This document shows positions 1 to 6,076 of a stretch of DNA of 6,076 nucleotides, piece after piece. The translations under genes and the position numbers were made by a program. Numbering within the stretch: the first letter of the stretch is position 1; every line of letters starts with the position of its first letter. The notes below the pieces were generated by a model. That model ran no database searches, was not told where the DNA came from, and saw only the letters and a list, made by a program, of their open reading frames with translations. Source of the DNA: Candidatus Heimdallarchaeota archaeon (GTDB lineage Archaea; Asgardarchaeota; Heimdallarchaeia; Heimdallarchaeales; Kariarchaeaceae); assembly GCA_030149205.1 (NCBI GenBank), contig JASBSB010000012.1:1-6076 (forward strand), read 5' to 3'.

Positions 1-128
1 TTACCCTCCTCAACCTGCTCTAACTTTTCTGGTTTAACTCCAATTTTCTTTGCTGCCTTATCTATATCCCACCCCATTTTAAGACGACTCCATGTCAATA
101 TTTTTGGATTAACTACAGAGTCTATCAT
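1..128 (-). CDS. Redundant partial copy of the 5' end of the Xre-HTH/ImmA gene (same bases as 5943-6070)
   Basis: ATG at 128-126 reads MIDSVVNPKILTW... and runs off the window edge. It lies within the terminal repeat, so it is not a separate gene if the molecule is circular. Confidence 0.9.
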   Translation of the reverse strand, partial: MIDSVVNPKILTWSRLKMGWDIDKAAKKIGVKPEKLEQVEEG

Positions 129-134
129 ACCTAC
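1..134. repeat. Terminal direct repeat, left copy (134 bp, identical to 5943-6076)
   Basis: TTACCCTCCTCAACC...GTCTATCATACCTAC at 1-134 matches 5943-6076 base for base by direct comparison. Confidence 0.98.
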
Positions 135-1945: not shown

Positions 1946-1994
1946 CTCCACACATCCTTCTGCTAGAATCCTACAGCTGTTTTCAAATTTGTAA
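1946..1994 (+). repeat. 49-bp direct repeat, copy 1 (42/49 identical to 4232-4280); candidate recombination/att-like site
   Basis: CTCCACACATCCTTCTGCTAGAATCCTACAGCTGTTTTCAAATTTGTAA aligns without gaps to copy 2, including a 17-bp exact core CCTTCTGCTAGAATCCT and a 12-bp exact TCAAATTTGTAA. Confidence 0.9.
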
Positions 1995-1999
1995 AAAAT

Positions 2000-2629
2000 T
2001 TATTCTATCTTCCACCTTCGCTCTACTTTTTTTGCTAAAATCATAAGAATTAGTGATGTAAAAAAGCCGGGAAGGATAAAGGAAATTTTATAATCATCTA
2101 CAGGATAGAAAACACTTTTTGCATAGGCTGATTGAAGATGAATTGTACTAACACCTTTGCCAAGGTGTATAAAAATCAATTTAGCCTTATATGGGTCATC
2201 CAGATGTATTTTTGAGTAAGAAACGTTCTCCCCAGACCAGGTGTCCATCAGGTTCAAATACTCCTTTGTCTTGTTATAATCTGTTACTTGAAATTGTGTT
2301 GGATATGGAAACGTTCTGTTAATTGGGTGCGAGAAATTAGTGTACTCATGAAGGTTGATAACCTTACTTTCATTTGCCATAAAAATAACTCTGATAATTG
2401 AGAAATTGGTTGAGAGGGAAACATTCAAACTACTATAAATTACACCGACATGATCAGAAATGTTATATTTCTGTGGAACAACAACCAAAACCTCTTTGAC
2501 ACCAAAACCAGTAAATTTGAATTCTAAGTCTAAAAACGGTGGAGAAGCAAATGAAGGCAAACTGCTACCTGATGCAGTTTGGTTGACTGACAGTACAATC
2601 ATTATTATCACAATAACCTTTAGCTTCAT
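2000..2629 (-). CDS. Secreted, C-terminally membrane-anchored surface (glyco)protein, 209 aa
   Basis: I prefer the start at ATG 2629 (MKLKVIVIIMIVLSV..., signal-peptide-like) over 2713. It overlaps the subtilase stop (ATGA, 2629-2626) and has GGAGGTG 4 nt upstream. The C-terminal hydrophobic helix ISFILPGFFTSLILMILA is followed by KKVERR. 9 of 11 Asn are in N-X-S/T sequons. Confidence 0.8.
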   Translation of the reverse strand: MKLKVIVIIMIVLSVNQTASGSSLPSFASPPFLDLEFKFTGFGVKEVLVVVPQKYNISDHVGVIYSSLNVSLSTNFSIIRVIFMANESKVINLHEYTNFSHPINRTFPYPTQFQVTDYNKTKEYLNLMDTWSGENVSYSKIHLDDPYKAKLIFIHLGKGVSTIHLQSAYAKSVFYPVDDYKISFILPGFFTSLILMILAKKVERRWKIE

Positions 2630-3945
2630 TCCCCACCTCCTGGGAGAGAACCAGCTCCCATCAGATACCCCCAATTCCAAAGCTCTTGATAGACAGATAA
2701 AGCATTTAACCATCCATAACCCATGTGTTGAGTGAAATAATATTGAGATGATACCCCTTTTAATAAGGAATAAAGAGTATCTGTAGAAAGAAGTGGTGGA
2801 TTTCCACCTCCTGCTCCCCGATATCCAATATTATAAGCATAGTTTGCCACCATCACCAACCCCGCAAAATATGGTGTGCTGAAGCTGGTTCCAAAACCAT
2901 AATAGAAAATTCTTTCTAAATTAGTAAAATAGTTAACAATAGGCACTCCATTCCCAGGCATTACGAAATCAATTTTTCGAGAATTATCTTTCTCTGTTGA
3001 ATCTGGTCCATATGACTCACAGAATACGGAAATAGAATCCTTGTCTTTGCATTCAGTTGGATGGTCTTTTGCAAAATCTGAGTTTCCACTATATTGACCC
3101 TTCACTGATTTGTAGTCTAAATCATAATACGTGTAGGGGTACCATCCCCATAAAAGGACCGTTCGATCGCCTCCCCTATTTTCGTGATCTACAGATCCAA
3201 TTCTATATATCAAAGGGTGATTTGCAGGAAAATAATCAGGTCGGTACTGCCCATCATTTCCTGAAGCAGCAATTAACATGACTCCTTTGTTATATATAGA
3301 TTGAATTTTTGAAGTAACATTCGAACTTACCTGACTCATCGGTACTCCTGCTACAAAAGACATGCTTATGGTCTTAATCTGATATCTTGCTATGTTTCGA
3401 TCAAGCCAGTTCCACAATAATGTTTGTTTGTGTAATGCTTCAAATCCATGATCATCACTAAGATCTATATCAACGAATATTATGTTCCCACCTCGAATGA
3501 TACTTGCGTATGCCATAGCCACTCTATATCCATGCGTACTTAACCACCCATATTTTAGAGAACCACCTAAATCACGATCATCAATTCCAGACAAGCTATC
3601 CTTCCCATAATTTCCATATTCGATAATTTTATTCGTAATCTTATCAAAAGTCAAAAATTTAATTATATCAAGAGAAAAAGGCTTTCCAGTATTATAAATG
3701 TACTTTTCTAGGTTTTTATACTCCTCTACTGTTAACCCAGAATCAAGTATTACAGTTGTTCCAAAATAATTTTTATCGACTGGTGTTCTTTCTAGCCACA
3801 AATTGCACCCAATAAAGGAAAGAGCTGGATCTGCACAGTTTTCAACATCCCAGGAAGGGGCAGGAGATAATAAGAATCCCGCAGCTAATGGAAATTCATA
3901 CACTGATTCATCATCCTTAGATTCAACATCTATATTGAGAACCAC
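2626..3945 (-). CDS. S8 family (subtilisin-like) serine peptidase; its probable signal peptide is encoded out of frame at 4012-3946
   Basis: Subtilase motifs appear in canonical order: VILDSG (Asp68), THGYRVA (His138), AASGNDG (oxyanion Asn230), GTSFSTPYFAG (Ser354). ISMSF, YFPA and DFVMPG segments and a C-terminal GYG also fit the family. Confidence 0.92.
   Translation of the reverse strand: MVLNIDVESKDDESVYEFPLAAGFLLSPAPSWDVENCADPALSFIGCNLWLERTPVDKNYFGTTVILDSGLTVEEYKNLEKYIYNTGKPFSLDIIKFLTFDKITNKIIEYGNYGKDSLSGIDDRDLGGSLKYGWLSTHGYRVAMAYASIIRGGNIIFVDIDLSDDHGFEALHKQTLLWNWLDRNIARYQIKTISMSFVAGVPMSQVSSNVTSKIQSIYNKGVMLIAASGNDGQYRPDYFPANHPLIYRIGSVDHENRGGDRTVLLWGWYPYTYYDLDYKSVKGQYSGNSDFAKDHPTECKDKDSISVFCESYGPDSTEKDNSRKIDFVMPGNGVPIVNYFTNLERIFYYGFGTSFSTPYFAGLVMVANYAYNIGYRGAGGGNPPLLSTDTLYSLLKGVSSQYYFTQHMGYGWLNALSVYQELWNWGYLMGAGSLPGGGE
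2634..2640 (-). promoter_or_regulatory. Shine-Dalgarno GGAGGTG for the 2629 start, embedded in the last codons of the subtilase
   Basis: The minus strand reads AGGAGGTGGGGA-ATGA, a strong SD-like sequence in an AT-rich background, with stop/start overlap. Confidence 0.75.
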
Positions 3946-4012
3946 CCCCCCCTCCCGTAAAACTCATAAGGAATAAAATACCTACAATAAAAATTAATTT
4001 AATTCTTATCAT
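3923..4012 (-). CDS. 29-aa ORF MIRIKLIFIVGILFLMSFTGGGGGSQYRC; likely the frameshifted signal-peptide segment of the subtilase
   Basis: ATG at 4012 has a basic n-region and a 13-aa hydrophobic core. It is 67 nt from GTG 3945, one base out of frame. Removing one G from G8 gives MIRIKLIFIVGILFLMSFTGGGVVLNIDVESK..., continuous with the subtilase. Confidence 0.65.
   Translation of the reverse strand: MIRIKLIFIVGILFLMSFTGGGGGSQYRC
3945..3952 (-). repeat. G8 homopolymer (C8 on +) at the signal peptide/subtilase junction
   Basis: Positions 3945-3952 are eight consecutive C, within CCCCCCCCTCCC, in an otherwise AT-rich region. Confidence 0.95.
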
Positions 4013-4231
4013 AGTTAAATCATTCAGTTATATAAATAAAAAATTTATGTATCTAGAAACCTCGATTTTATATTTTTTTCGATTTATGATACAAAATTTG
4101 TCTACATATACCCTAGATTACTAAACTTTAGGAAGTTTGAAAAAAGTATTTGCTGCAATCACAAAGCTGCTAAACTTTAGGTATAAGAATGGGTTGCTCC
4201 CCATTGAGCTGGCAAATGGTATTGTCTCGCG

Positions 4232-4280
4232 CTCTACATACCCTTCTGCTAGAATCCTTCAGTTATTGTCAAATTTGTAA
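4232..4280 (+). repeat. 49-bp direct repeat, copy 2 (42/49 identical to 1946-1994)
   Basis: CTCTACATACCCTTCTGCTAGAATCCTTCAGTTATTGTCAAATTTGTAA lies 2286 bp from copy 1 in the same orientation. Confidence 0.9.
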
Positions 4281-4295
4281 TAAAAAATTATTACA
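4276..4295. terminator. Inverted repeat TGTAATAA-AAAA-TTATTACA containing an A6/T6 tract; possible terminator downstream of the PIN gene, or a protein-binding site
   Basis: The 8-bp arms are perfect with a 4-nt spacer. The minus strand has a T6 run about 95 nt after the PIN stop. Function is inferred only. Confidence 0.35.
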
Positions 4296-4382: not shown

Positions 4383-4904
4383 CTACTTAAATTTAGCAAC
4401 CAACTGTAGTAGATTATAGCAGTCAATCCCCTCTAATTTGCATATTTCAGGTATTTTGGTCTTATTGCTCACATCTTGATGCTTAAAATTTTTTAGTCTA
4501 TTTGAGTTACTTTTTTCCTCACTAAGAACAGCATAATTGTTTGCTTTTGCAAGAGCCACAACATGATGATCTGCAATTGTTGAGACATTTGGAGGAATCC
4601 ATTTTGGATATTTTCCCATCAAGTCCTTAAGAATTAAAAGTGAATTCTCCTCGTTTTTTGCTTTGCAGGAATTCGCCAATTGGTAAATAGATAATTTTTC
4701 GTAATTTTTTCCTTTTTTTAGTTCTTCAATTACTGTACGACTTACAACAAAAATGTTATTGCGAGAGCAAAGTCTTAGAATATCCCAAATATCTGGGTTA
4801 TTGTCTTCTGAATAGTATTTTTCGATTTCAATAAAGACAGAGGTGTCAACTGCAAACTTTAATCCTGAAAGAAACAATTTAGAGAAAGACGTCTCAGAAG
4901 GCAT
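4383..4904 (-). CDS. DUF4411-like PIN-domain protein (putative RNase toxin), 173 aa
   Basis: PIN-type acidic residues occur in the expected order: AVDTSVFI, VIEEL, IADHHVVALA, VLSEE. A C-terminal KIPEIC..EGIDC segment is typical of DUF4411 as I recall it. I prefer the start at ATG 4904, 2 nt after the upstream stop with GGAG 10 nt upstream, over 4928. Confidence 0.82.
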   Translation of the reverse strand: MPSETSFSKLFLSGLKFAVDTSVFIEIEKYYSEDNNPDIWDILRLCSRNNIFVVSRTVIEELKKGKNYEKLSIYQLANSCKAKNEENSLLILKDLMGKYPKWIPPNVSTIADHHVVALAKANNYAVLSEEKSNSNRLKNFKHQDVSNKTKIPEICKLEGIDCYNLLQLVAKFK

Positions 4905-4906
4905 GT

Positions 4907-6070
4907 TTACAATTCTCCATTCTCCCACATCTTTTCAAAATGTTCAAGACCCTTCAAACTAAGACCAGATACCCTATAAAGTTCTACATCTGAAATAAAT
5001 TCTTTTTGTTTTGCTTCAAACAGCAGTTTAACAGACCTCCGCCCAAAATCACTTAGATATGTGCTGTAATAGTTCCCCCCTCCTTTCTTTTTAGGACGTA
5101 TCGGGGGTGTGGGAAATGAATCTCTTTGTTTATAAAACAACTTCAAATCCCTAAAGGTGTAATTCACAACTGAATAACTAACTTTAAACCTGTTAGAGAC
5201 TTTATGAAAAATAGTTTGCAACTCTTTTTCAGTCAAATTCATTCGGGAATCATCCCATCCAATTTCAGCTAAGTAATTCCTCAATTCATCATTTGGTAAC
5301 AGAAACAGAGAAGCTGTTTTGTTACAAATTCTTTCAATTTTTGGAATGGAGACTGGAGACTCTTCTGTTAACTTACTATCACCAATGCAAACCCCAGATT
5401 TATTAAGCAGAAGGTGAGTAAGTTCATGTATCAATGTAAAGTTTCTACCATAATAACTGTCCTCTTTGTTTAAAGCAATCAAGGGAAGAGGGGTTTCCGA
5501 AAATGAAAACCCTCTGGTAACTTCTAATGGGATCCCTTTAAATTGAACTGTTAAAATGTCATTGTTTTCTATGAGTTCCCTAATGTAATTTAGAGCTGCG
5601 TTATCTCTTAATTTTATTAATTTGGTATGATCAATCGAAAGTACCTCCTCAACTTTTAGTACCGTGCGCTCTATCGCTTGTTCAATGGATGTGTCCTCTA
5701 TATTTATTGACCCAACAAACTCGTATCTGTTCGTTTTAATTGATTTGAAAATTCCAGCTAGATTCTTTTTTCTTTCATAAAGTTCTCTAATAATAACCTC
5801 AAGCTTAGCAGGAATTTTTGATTTTGTACCTCTAAAATCGGGAAGATTAATGTCCACAGGAGGTTCATCCATGAGAAAGGTTGCTATGGACCTCTTATAT
5901 GCTTTTGATAATTTGAGTAGTTGGTTGAATGTTAGAACCGTCTTACCCTCCTCAACCTGCTCTAACTTTTCTGGTTTAACTCCAATTTTCTTTGCTGCCT
6001 TATCTATATCCCACCCCATTTTAAGACGACTCCATGTCAATATTTTTGGATTAACTACAGAGTCTATCAT
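4907..6070 (-). CDS. Xre-family HTH fused to an ImmA/IrrE (peptidase M78, COG2856-type) Zn metallopeptidase; putative antitoxin/regulator
   Basis: N-terminal HTH (LTWSRLKMGWDIDKAAKKIGVKPEKLEQVEEGK...LLKLSKAY) followed by PDFR. It has RNFTLIHELTH (HEXXH, H215/E216/H219) and ERICNKTASLFLLP (third-ligand Glu motif). Confidence 0.92.
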   Translation of the reverse strand: MIDSVVNPKILTWSRLKMGWDIDKAAKKIGVKPEKLEQVEEGKTVLTFNQLLKLSKAYKRSIATFLMDEPPVDINLPDFRGTKSKIPAKLEVIIRELYERKKNLAGIFKSIKTNRYEFVGSINIEDTSIEQAIERTVLKVEEVLSIDHTKLIKLRDNAALNYIRELIENNDILTVQFKGIPLEVTRGFSFSETPLPLIALNKEDSYYGRNFTLIHELTHLLLNKSGVCIGDSKLTEESPVSIPKIERICNKTASLFLLPNDELRNYLAEIGWDDSRMNLTEKELQTIFHKVSNRFKVSYSVVNYTFRDLKLFYKQRDSFPTPPIRPKKKGGGNYYSTYLSDFGRRSVKLLFEAKQKEFISDVELYRVSGLSLKGLEHFEKMWENGEL

Positions 6071-6076
6071 ACCTAC
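5943..6076. repeat. Terminal direct repeat, right copy (134 bp); implies a 5942-bp circular or tandem unit
   Basis: Identical to 1-134. Joining the ends places the 135-356 intergenic region directly upstream of the HTH-peptidase start codon. Confidence 0.98.

What the first reader, a model, noticed from the sequence alone, without database searches (positions are those of the whole stretch)
3923..4012. G8 tract disconnects a signal peptide from the subtilase: candidate phase-variation switch
Seen: ATG 4012 encodes MIRIKLIFIVGILFLMSFTGG.... With G8 the frame ends at TGA 3925-3923 after 29 aa. With G7 or G10 it fuses in frame to the 439-aa subtilase. The paired Cys residues and the exported partner suggest the protease is meant to be secreted. 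Known: poly-G/C tracts near 5' ends of surface genes mediate slipped-strand ON/OFF switching. Inference: the assembled allele is OFF for secretion. The tract also forms GGGAGG 5 nt before GTG 3945, so the G8 state might yield a signal-less isoform, switching location rather than expression. A +1 ribosomal frameshift or a homopolymer sequencing error are the alternatives.
Basis: partly seen in the sequence, partly recalled or inferred. Interest (0 to 1): 0.8.

Follow-up and report, generated by a model that had tools for sequence, protein, structure and literature searches.

The report
Poly-G frame-break gating Asgard secreted protease
In an Asgard (Heimdall-group) archaeon a run of eight G's really does cut the export signal off a secreted protease gene. 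The same out-of-frame design recurs in related genes and genomes, so it looks like a maintained slippage switch or gate, not an error, and such switches have not been described in archaea.

Summary
ATG 4012 opens a 29-codon signal-peptide ORF that runs into G8 (3945-3952) and stops at 3923. G7 or G10 would fuse it to the 439-aa S8 subtilase.

It is not an assembler artefact. A separate Logan assembly of run SRR23576960 is identical over 3481 bp, G8 included. In this genome 8 of the 9 G8/C8 tracts lie in frame inside ORFs.

The design is a family trait of Heimdallarchaeial secreted proteases. I found 8 loci (9 alleles, 21 sequences) with signal-peptide ORF, G8-G15, then the mature ORF. None is in frame, and both frame offsets occur.

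Five of these loci form a deep, well-supported clade under purifying selection. One gene with an identical protein product carries G8 in three assemblies and G9 in two, both out of frame. Sister paralogues carry G6-G10 between the TATA box and the ATG instead.

Best reading (0.4): a replication-slippage ON/OFF switch that rests in OFF, like the Bifidobacterium breve pilus G-tracts. No ON allele was seen anywhere, so slippage at the RNA or ribosome level (0.25) remains a serious rival. Other rivals are separate initiation of a signal-less protein (0.12) and plain decay of this copy (0.15).

This scan has reported similar poly-G gates in bacteria.

The parts
4028..4036 (-). TATA-like box TTTATATAA. 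The A of ATG 4012 is the 25th base counted from its first T, the spacing of a leaderless or short-leader archaeal promoter.
   Evidence: Read. The same spacing (ATG at +25 to +28) is seen in paralogues L003, L004 and L010. This is inspection only; no archaeal promoter tool was available.
3923..4012 (-). Signal-peptide ORF of 29 codons plus TGA: n-region MIRIK, h-region LIFIVGILFLM, then SFT-GGGGG-SQYRC.
   Evidence: The best 10-residue Kyte-Doolittle mean is 3.43. It resembles the signal peptides of homologues P0003, P0006 and P0007.
3945..3952 (-). G8 homopolymer (C8 on the + strand), the frame-break. G7 or G10 would join the signal peptide to the subtilase.
   Evidence: An identical G8 is found in the independent Logan contig L112.
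3951..3956 (-). GGGAGG, Shine-Dalgarno-like, 5 nt before GTG 3945. The tract plus TGGT can also pair with the 16S 3' end.
   Evidence: This genome's own 16S rRNA ends ...GGATCACCTCCT.
2626..3945 (-). S8 subtilase body, 439 aa counted from GTG 3945. It has Asp68 (VILDSG), His (STHGY), Asn230 (SGNDG), Ser354 (GTSFS) and the Cys pair C37/C47.
   Evidence: PF00082 scores 31.9 bits against a cut-off of 21.8. Alignment A1.
2000..2629 (-). Partner gene of 209 aa, overlapping the subtilase stop by ATGA. It has its own signal peptide, many N-X-S/T sequons and a C-terminal membrane anchor.
   Evidence: A partner of 192-220 aa follows the subtilase in nearly all complete homologous loci.
1946..1998 (+). 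Direct repeat copy 1. Together with copy 2 it brackets the subtilase operon and its promoter.
   Evidence: 53 nt, 85% identical.
4232..4284 (+). Direct repeat copy 2.

Best explanation
The G8 tract is a real, evolutionarily maintained slippery frame-break. It decides whether the leaderless signal-peptide ORF (ATG 4012) is joined to the subtilase. In the sequenced majority state (G8) the secreted pre-protein cannot be made. Losing one G or gaining two restores it. I take the most likely mechanism to be slipped-strand mispairing during replication: a heritable, reversible contingency switch in which most cells rest in OFF and a minority are ON.

Shown: the tract, its frame effect, its recurrence across loci, purifying selection on the gene bodies, and one length polymorphism in a relative.

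Inferred: that switching happens at the DNA level, that it is reversible, and that ON cells exist.
For: (1) G8 is reproduced in an independent assembly that is 100% identical over 3481 bp. In this genome 8 of the 9 G8/C8 tracts lie in frame inside ORFs.

(2) The same layout (signal-peptide ORF, then G8-G15, then the mature ORF in another frame) occurs in 8 loci, 9 alleles and 21 sequences. These include a second, unrelated HEXXH protein gene in this genome with G11.

(3) Tract length differs between paralogues (8, 9, 10, 15). It also differs between strains carrying an identical 395-aa product: G8 in L100, L102 and L103, and G9 in L101 and L104. The tract therefore mutates faster than the gene body.

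(4) The genes are not decaying. dN/dS is 0.22-0.34, and pN is 0.18 against pS 0.84. The signal-peptide ORFs stay intact and hydrophobic in all loci. Five such loci form a deep clade with 99/98 support.

(5) Both out-of-frame offsets occur, and they swap between the G8 and G9 alleles. That argues against a single directional ribosomal frameshift.

(6) Precedent: in Bifidobacterium breve, intragenic G-tracts in pilus genes stand OFF in the consensus, and the genes are expressed through replication slippage in a sub-population (PMC9187656).
Against: No in-frame allele was found among 9 alleles. By my own arithmetic, the chance of that under a random frame is (2/3)^9 = 0.026. No in-frame form appears among the 52 homologue N-termini read either.

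The L005 lineage keeps G8 in all 8 sequences examined, whose copies are 91-96% identical. These copies are not fully independent, because the 5' region is identical in all of them.

The genome encodes MutS, which should damp one-base slippage.

No read-level data could be obtained.
Confidence: 0.4

Rival explanations
1. Non-heritable slippage gate. The out-of-frame tract is the permanent, selected state. A small fraction of secreted pre-protein is made in every cell, either because the archaeal RNA polymerase stutters on G runs of 8 or more (giving n-1 and n+1 transcripts) or because ribosomes slip on the G run. The break then acts as an expression attenuator, not as a switch.
For: 0 of 9 alleles are in frame, yet the gene bodies are under purifying selection through deep divergence. 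The shortest intragenic tract is 8 in every locus, about the length of the RNA:DNA hybrid. Promoter-side tracts in sister genes go down to 6. The G8 and G9 alleles of one gene are both out of frame; transcriptional slippage can serve both offsets. In the L005 lineage the tract reads AA G_GGG_GGG GTA, a formally perfect -1 heptamer.
Against: As far as I know, and in the papers seen (PMC1088944 and PMC6260861), elongation slippage is documented for A/T runs, not G runs. Archaeal RNA polymerase is untested. A ribosomal mechanism would need +1 in some loci and -1 in others. No conserved downstream stimulatory structure was found: the window's 70 nt downstream fold with z = -0.55. A hairpin between C-rich signal-peptide codons and the tract exists in the clade but not in the window.
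Confidence: 0.25
2. Out of frame by design with separate initiation. The G tract serves as the Shine-Dalgarno element for the body ORF, which is translated without a signal peptide by its own initiation or by termination-reinitiation. The upstream hydrophobic ORF is then a separate micro-peptide or a relic.
For: GGGGGTGA pairs with this genome's own 16S 3' end. All five clade members have an in-frame ATG 2-19 nt after the tract. In the G9 allele the upstream ORF's stop overlaps that ATG as ATGA. Sister paralogues use tract, then TGA.., then ATG as their true start region. This reading explains why no allele is ever in frame.
Against: The window has no ATG after the tract, only GTG 3945. The upstream ORFs keep full signal-peptide features (a basic n-region and a hydrophobic core) across roughly 39% identity of the bodies, and those features have a purpose only if the peptide is attached to a passenger protein. 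The family is otherwise exported, has conserved Cys pairs and has an exported partner.
Confidence: 0.12
3. Ordinary inactivating frameshift. This particular copy, which sits on a small 5.9-kb circular or repeat-bounded element, simply gained one G and is a young pseudogene.
For: The family decays often: several split or stop-containing copies exist in same-genus genomes. The window gene has no close orthologue, the best match being 44% identity, so selection on this copy cannot be measured. Earlier notes of this scan judged several single archaeal cases this way.
Against: The rest of the ORF, the catalytic residues, the coupled partner gene and the signal-peptide ORF are all intact. The identical architecture recurs in 7 further loci that are under purifying selection.
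Confidence: 0.15
4. Homopolymer sequencing or assembly error. The true sequence is G7.
For: The contig is short, and the assembly (12 contigs) is probably based on long reads. G8 is an error-prone context.
Against: An independent Logan contig from SRR23576960 has the same G8 with no mismatch in 3481 bp. In this genome 8 of the 9 G8/C8 tracts and most G7/C7 tracts lie in frame at the assembled length. The same break occurs in short-read assemblies of other genomes.
Confidence: 0.04

Closest known systems
Bifidobacterium breve UCC2003 sortase-dependent pilus genes with an intragenic G-tract (Penno et al. 2022, PMC9187656)
   Same: An intragenic poly-G puts a surface or secreted protein gene out of frame in the genome consensus. 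Equivalent tracts are conserved across relatives. Expression depends on a minority of cells with a different tract length.
   Different: That system is bacterial. Its tract is not at the signal-peptide junction. Slippage was measured there by maximum-depth sequencing, whereas here nothing was measured at the read level.
Neisseria pilC (poly-G in the signal-peptide coding region) and the opa family (CTCTT repeats in the signal-peptide coding region). This is from my own knowledge; opa phase variation is also mentioned in PMC11868660.
   Same: The repeat lies inside the signal-peptide coding region of a multi-copy family of exported proteins. A change in length uncouples the export signal from the body.
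   Different: In Neisseria both ON and OFF alleles are readily seen, and switching has been shown experimentally. Here there are 0 ON alleles among 9. The organism is a free-living sediment archaeon, not a host-adapted pathogen.
Promoter-spacer homopolymer switches (N. meningitidis porA poly-G and opc poly-C; my own knowledge)
   Same: Sister paralogues of both protease families carry G6-G10 (one carries C10) between the core promoter element and the start codon.
   Different: The promoter here is an archaeal TATA/leaderless architecture, not -35/-10. No effect on expression has been shown.
Transcriptional-slippage genes such as Shigella mxiE and Thermus dnaX, and the rescue of poly(A) frameshifts in endosymbionts (review PMC5009743)
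   Same: An out-of-frame homopolymer is conserved among homologues that remain under purifying selection.
   Different: The known cases use A/T runs and a fixed direction. Here the run is G and both offsets occur.

Membership tests
Homopolymer (SSR) phase-variable contingency locus | A tract of about 7-8 or more identical bases in the 5' coding region or the promoter | tested here: met
   G8 lies at codons 21-23 of the signal-peptide ORF.
Homopolymer (SSR) phase-variable contingency locus | One-base length changes toggle the reading frame between full-length and truncated product | tested here: met
   Simulated G6 to G10 give 26/461/29/27/462 aa.
Homopolymer (SSR) phase-variable contingency locus | Tract length is polymorphic among closely related strains or within a population | tested here: inconclusive
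   Met in a relative: G8 against G9 with an identical 395-aa product. Not seen in the L005 lineage, which is G8 in all 8 sequences.
Homopolymer (SSR) phase-variable contingency locus | Both ON (in-frame) and OFF alleles occur in nature | tested here: not met
   0 of 9 alleles in 21 sequences are in frame. No SP-GGG-body protein appears among the 52 homologue N-termini read.
Homopolymer (SSR) phase-variable contingency locus | High-rate, reversible switching | not testable with these tools
   This needs reads or cultures.
Programmed recoding site (ribosomal frameshift or transcriptional slippage) | The out-of-frame arrangement is conserved in diverged homologues under purifying selection | tested here: met
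   A clade of 5 loci with 99/98 support. pN/pS is far below 1. All are out of frame.
Programmed recoding site (ribosomal frameshift or transcriptional slippage) | The same shift direction and shift site are conserved | tested here: not met
   By allele, five need the +1 frame and four need the -1 frame. The G8 and G9 alleles of one gene need opposite shifts.
Programmed recoding site (ribosomal frameshift or transcriptional slippage) | A conserved stimulatory element (downstream structure, SD-like element or adjacent stop codon) | tested here: inconclusive
   The tract is itself SD-like. The downstream fold is unremarkable, with z = -0.55 in the window. An upstream C-rich/tract hairpin of -11 to -20 kcal/mol exists in the clade, but it is only -3.8 in the window.
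Peptidase S8 (subtilase) | Profile match above the curated cut-off | tested here: met
   PF00082 scores 31.9 bits against 21.8.
Peptidase S8 (subtilase) | Catalytic Asp, His and Ser in subtilase order, plus the oxyanion Asn | tested here: met
   VILD68SG, STHGY, SGN230DG and GTS354FS are conserved in alignment A1 wherever the sequences cover these positions.
Sec-type signal peptide | A basic n-region, a hydrophobic core of 10-15 residues and a small-residue c-region | tested here: met
   MIRIK / LIFIVGILFLM / SFTGGG. The 10-residue Kyte-Doolittle mean is 3.43. No dedicated signal-peptide predictor was available, so the cleavage site is not assigned.

The most novel reading that the evidence does not exclude
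The break is never meant to be repaired in the DNA. In Heimdall-group Asgard archaea, a clade of secreted-protease genes and some unrelated exported proteins are kept permanently out of frame at a G run of 8 or more. They are read through by polymerase stuttering or ribosome slippage, which doses or conditionally gates the export of costly extracellular enzymes. This would be the first recoding system described in Asgard archaea, and the first G-run elongation slippage by an archaeal (Pol II-like) RNA polymerase.
Probability: 0.2. Interest if true: 0.8.

Novelty: new member of a known kind. Interest (0 to 1): 0.6.

Why it matters
Homopolymer switches that uncouple an export signal from its protein are classic bet-hedging devices of host-adapted bacteria. 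A 2025 review still lists archaea as unexplored for phase-variable loci (PMC11868660), and known archaeal recoding cases are few (PMC5009743).

Here the design is a lineage-wide trait of extracellular proteases in Heimdallarchaeia, the closest known archaeal relatives of eukaryotes. It would mean that slow-growing sediment archaea generate cell-to-cell heterogeneity, or tightly dose, their public-good enzymes.

It also matters for annotation. Gene callers start these genes after the tract, so the proteins appear signal-less (P0001, P0002, P0016, P0157-P0159) and would be counted as cytoplasmic.

Tried and rejected

(2) The metagenome-contig scan returned only 2 loci, each with 85 nt upstream, which was uninformative.

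(3) A quadruplet-decoding or missing tRNA-Gly as a cause of +1 shifts: aragorn found only 19-23 tRNAs and no tRNA-Gly in this genome, presumably because of introns. No conclusion can be drawn.

(4) A downstream frameshift-stimulating structure: none stands out in the window (z = -0.55).

(5) An alternative genetic code: TGA=Trp does not open the frame, because TAA follows.

(6) My first hand reading of the second own-genome locus (G11), that it needs one G fewer, was wrong. Simulation shows it needs one G more. The automatic frame column was also unreliable and is superseded.

(7) Treating the eight G8 copies of the L005 lineage as strong evidence for stabilising selection: I down-weighted this, because several encode identical proteins and the 5' region is identical in all, so recent ancestry or gene conversion is possible.

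(8) Pfam gave nothing for the G11-gated 522-aa HEXXH protein or for the partner protein. One search was a mistyped reference.

Full report
**1. The observation**

On the minus strand, ATG 4012 opens MIRIKLIFIVGILFLMSFTGGGGGSQYRC and stops at TGA 3925-3923. The tract is exactly G8 at 3952-3945. GGGAGG (3956-3951) lies 5 nt before GTG 3945, which opens a 439-aa ORF (2626-3945). That ORF matches Peptidase_S8 at 31.9 bits against a cut-off of 21.8.

Simulating tract lengths gives ORFs from ATG 4012 of 26, 461, 29, 27 and 462 aa for G6 to G10.

A TATA-like TTTATATAA (4036-4028) places the ATG at +25, the spacing of a leaderless-type archaeal start. This is inspection only.

The downstream gene (2000-2629) overlaps the subtilase stop by ATGA. 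It has its own signal peptide, many N-glycosylation sequons and a C-terminal anchor.

**2. Origin**

The window is the whole of contig C6 of a 3.3-Mb, 12-contig, 35% GC archaeal genome. Relatives carrying the gene family are labelled Candidatus Heimdallarchaeota.

The contig has an exact 134-nt terminal repeat, which makes a 5942-bp circle. A 53-nt direct repeat brackets the subtilase operon. The rest of the contig encodes an HTH-ImmA/IrrE protein, a DUF4411 protein and a 507-aa polytopic membrane protein.

**3. Not an artefact**

A Logan assembly of run SRR23576960 carries the same locus, 100% identical over 3481 bp and with G8. In the genome, 8 of the 9 G8/C8 tracts, and most of the 57 G/C tracts of 7 or more, give the longest ORF at their assembled length. 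The assembly is therefore generally accurate at such runs.

Glycine runs do not require homopolymers. Of 339 Gly-runs of 3 or more residues in long ORFs, only 4 contain a pure G stretch of 8 or more.

**4. The protein is meant to be exported**

Full-length homologues start with typical signal peptides (P0003, P0006, P0007). The catalytic Asp/His/Asn/Ser and an N-terminal Cys pair are conserved. A partner gene of about 200 aa with a signal peptide follows in nearly every complete locus.

**5. The same break recurs**

The same-genus genomes G001-G003 hold 12-17 matches to the subtilase, while this genome holds one. Reading the 5' ends of all copies that reach the N-terminus shows three classes.

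- *No tract.* Most copies have a normal in-frame signal peptide directly after a TATA-proximal ATG.
- *Arrangement A.* G7-G8 (once C10) lies between the TATA box and the ATG (L003, L004, L010, L040).
- *Arrangement B.* As in the window: ATG, signal peptide, G run, then the body in another frame.

By simulation, arrangement B comprises the window (G8), L026 (G15), L093/L094 (G10), L100/L102/L103 (G8), L101/L104 (G9), L105/L106 (G8), L107 (G9) and the L005 lineage (G8 in 8 sequences, with the tract after codon 7). It also includes an unrelated 522-aa HEXXH protein gene of this same genome, with G11 at C8:487599-487609. Homologues of that protein in G001 and G003 carry G6, G7, G9 or G10 in arrangement A.

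None of the 9 alleles (21 sequences) is in frame. By allele, five need one G fewer and four need one G more. None of the 52 homologue N-termini read shows a fused signal peptide-GGG-body form.

**6. Evolution**

In a maximum-likelihood tree, L105, L107, L026, L043 and L051 form one clade (99/98) with long internal branches. The window and L005 sit unresolved nearby. The architecture is therefore old.

The bodies evolve under purifying selection. dN/dS is 0.22-0.34 within the L005 lineage. pN is 0.18 against pS 0.84 for L093 versus L103, and pN is 0.28 against pS 0.81 for L105 versus L107. The upstream ORFs keep start codons, basic n-regions and hydrophobic cores in all loci. These are not decaying genes.

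The tract does change. One gene whose 395-aa product is identical in five assemblies has G8 in three and G9 in two, both out of frame. Conversely, the L005 lineage shows G8 in every copy, at 91-96% DNA identity. Those copies share an identical 5' region, and several encode identical proteins, so they are not independent.

**7. Mechanism**

The data exclude an assembler error. They make plain decay unlikely as a general explanation.

They fit a slippage-dependent gate. The export signal can be attached only after a shift of plus or minus one base at the tract.

*DNA-level slippage.* This is a contingency switch resting in OFF. It is supported by the length polymorphism, by the occurrence of both offsets, and by the B. 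breve precedent, in which the consensus is OFF and a minority ON fraction is functional (PMC9187656). The weak points are the total lack of ON alleles ((2/3)^9 = 0.026 by my arithmetic) and the presence of MutS (NucS was not found).

*A permanent gate read by polymerase stuttering or ribosome slippage.* This explains the absence of ON alleles, the tolerance of both OFF lengths and the minimum length of 8. However, elongation slippage on G runs is not documented in the papers I could read. Archaeal recoding cases are few (PMC5009743). No conserved stimulator was found in the window.

*The tract as the Shine-Dalgarno element of an independently translated, signal-less body.* The 16S rRNA 3' end is GGATCACCTCCT. 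All five clade members have an in-frame ATG 2-19 nt after the tract. This reading cannot explain why the upstream ORFs stay signal-peptide-like, and the window offers only GTG 3945.

My odds are: DNA switch 0.40, RNA or ribosome slippage 0.25, separate initiation 0.12, simple inactivation of this copy 0.15, and error 0.04.

**8. Comparison and novelty**

Functionally, the nearest systems are the B. breve pilus G-tracts, Neisseria pilC/opa and promoter-spacer homopolymers (see Closest known systems). Membership in the class of phase-variable contingency loci is not established, because the ON/OFF criterion was tested and not met, and the switching rate is untestable here. Membership in the class of programmed frameshift sites fails on conserved direction.

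A 2025 review treats archaea as still unexplored for phase-variable loci, and my searches found no Asgard case. Earlier notes of this scan report comparable always-out-of-frame poly-G gates in uncultured bacteria, and a poly-C promoter tract in an ammonia-oxidising archaeon. Those are leads, not evidence.

I class this as a new member of a known kind, with a real chance (about 0.2) of being a distinct, permanently out-of-frame recoding gate.

**9. Limits**

No reads, RNA or protein data were available. Signal peptides were judged by composition only, and promoters by eye. The census is small, and its members are partly related.

Noticed in passing
G000:C8:487599-487609 (locus L068:3600-3610, minus strand): A second gate in the same genome. 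The ORF MIKINSLLLILLLNVSQFAGGG runs into G11 and is out of frame with a 522-544-aa HEXXH protein that has no Pfam match. One more G would fuse them. Homologues in G001 and G003 instead have G6, G7, G9 or G10 between the TATA box and the ATG.
   Followed up: partly
G000:C5:7464-7476 (locus L069): A C13 run lies directly upstream of a TATA-like ATATTTAAA (the BRE position) of a 372-aa signal-peptide gene on another small contig (9.2 kb). The run is about 38 nt before the ATG. It may be a promoter-side homopolymer.
   Followed up: no
L003:2543, L004:3984, L010:752, L007:34; L071-L074: Arrangement A. G6-G10 (or C10) fills the spacer between the TATA box and a start codon at +23 to +29, in paralogues of both protease families. 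Changes in length would move a leaderless start relative to the transcription start site.
   Followed up: partly
G000:C8:566533-566539 (L108:768-2600, minus strand): A 610-aa, C-terminally anchored HExxHxxGxxH (metzincin-like) glycoprotein has G5-TA-G7 right after its signal peptide, here in frame. Homologues in other genera lack the tract.
   Followed up: partly
window 1-134 and 5943-6076; 1946-1998 and 4232-4284: An exact 134-nt terminal repeat means the contig closes into a 5942-bp circle. A 53-nt direct repeat (85% identical) brackets the subtilase operon like a cassette. I recognised no replication or integrase gene.
   Followed up: partly
window 4383-6070 (minus strand): An HTH_3 + Peptidase_M78 (ImmA/IrrE) gene overlaps a DUF4411 (PIN-like) gene. 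This is a common toxin-antitoxin or defence-type pair.
   Followed up: no
G001-G003 against G000: The subtilase family has 12-17 matches in each same-genus genome but a single copy here, on the small circle. Several copies in G001-G003 are split or carry stop codons.
   Followed up: no
L101:approx. 600-640, L093, L105 (5' of the tract): In the arrangement-B clade, the C-rich signal-peptide codons (CCTCCC and the like) pair with the G run in a hairpin of -11 to -20 kcal/mol. In the L005 lineage the partner (CTCCTCC) lies downstream. The window lacks such a partner.
   Followed up: partly
L008, L009, L012, L052-L067 (upstream of tract-less paralogues): The tract-less paralogues share a conserved T-rich element (reading ...TTTTTTTCGTAC...) ending about 10 nt before the ATG. 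This suggests a common leaderless promoter module for the family.
   Followed up: no
G000:C2:3257-3265: A C9 run lies in an unusually GC-rich stretch at a contig end. One base fewer lengthens the ORF from 134 to 206 aa. It may be a mobile-element gene.
   Followed up: no
whole genome G000: aragorn finds only 19-23 tRNAs and no tRNA-Gly, probably because the tRNA genes are intron-rich.
   Followed up: no
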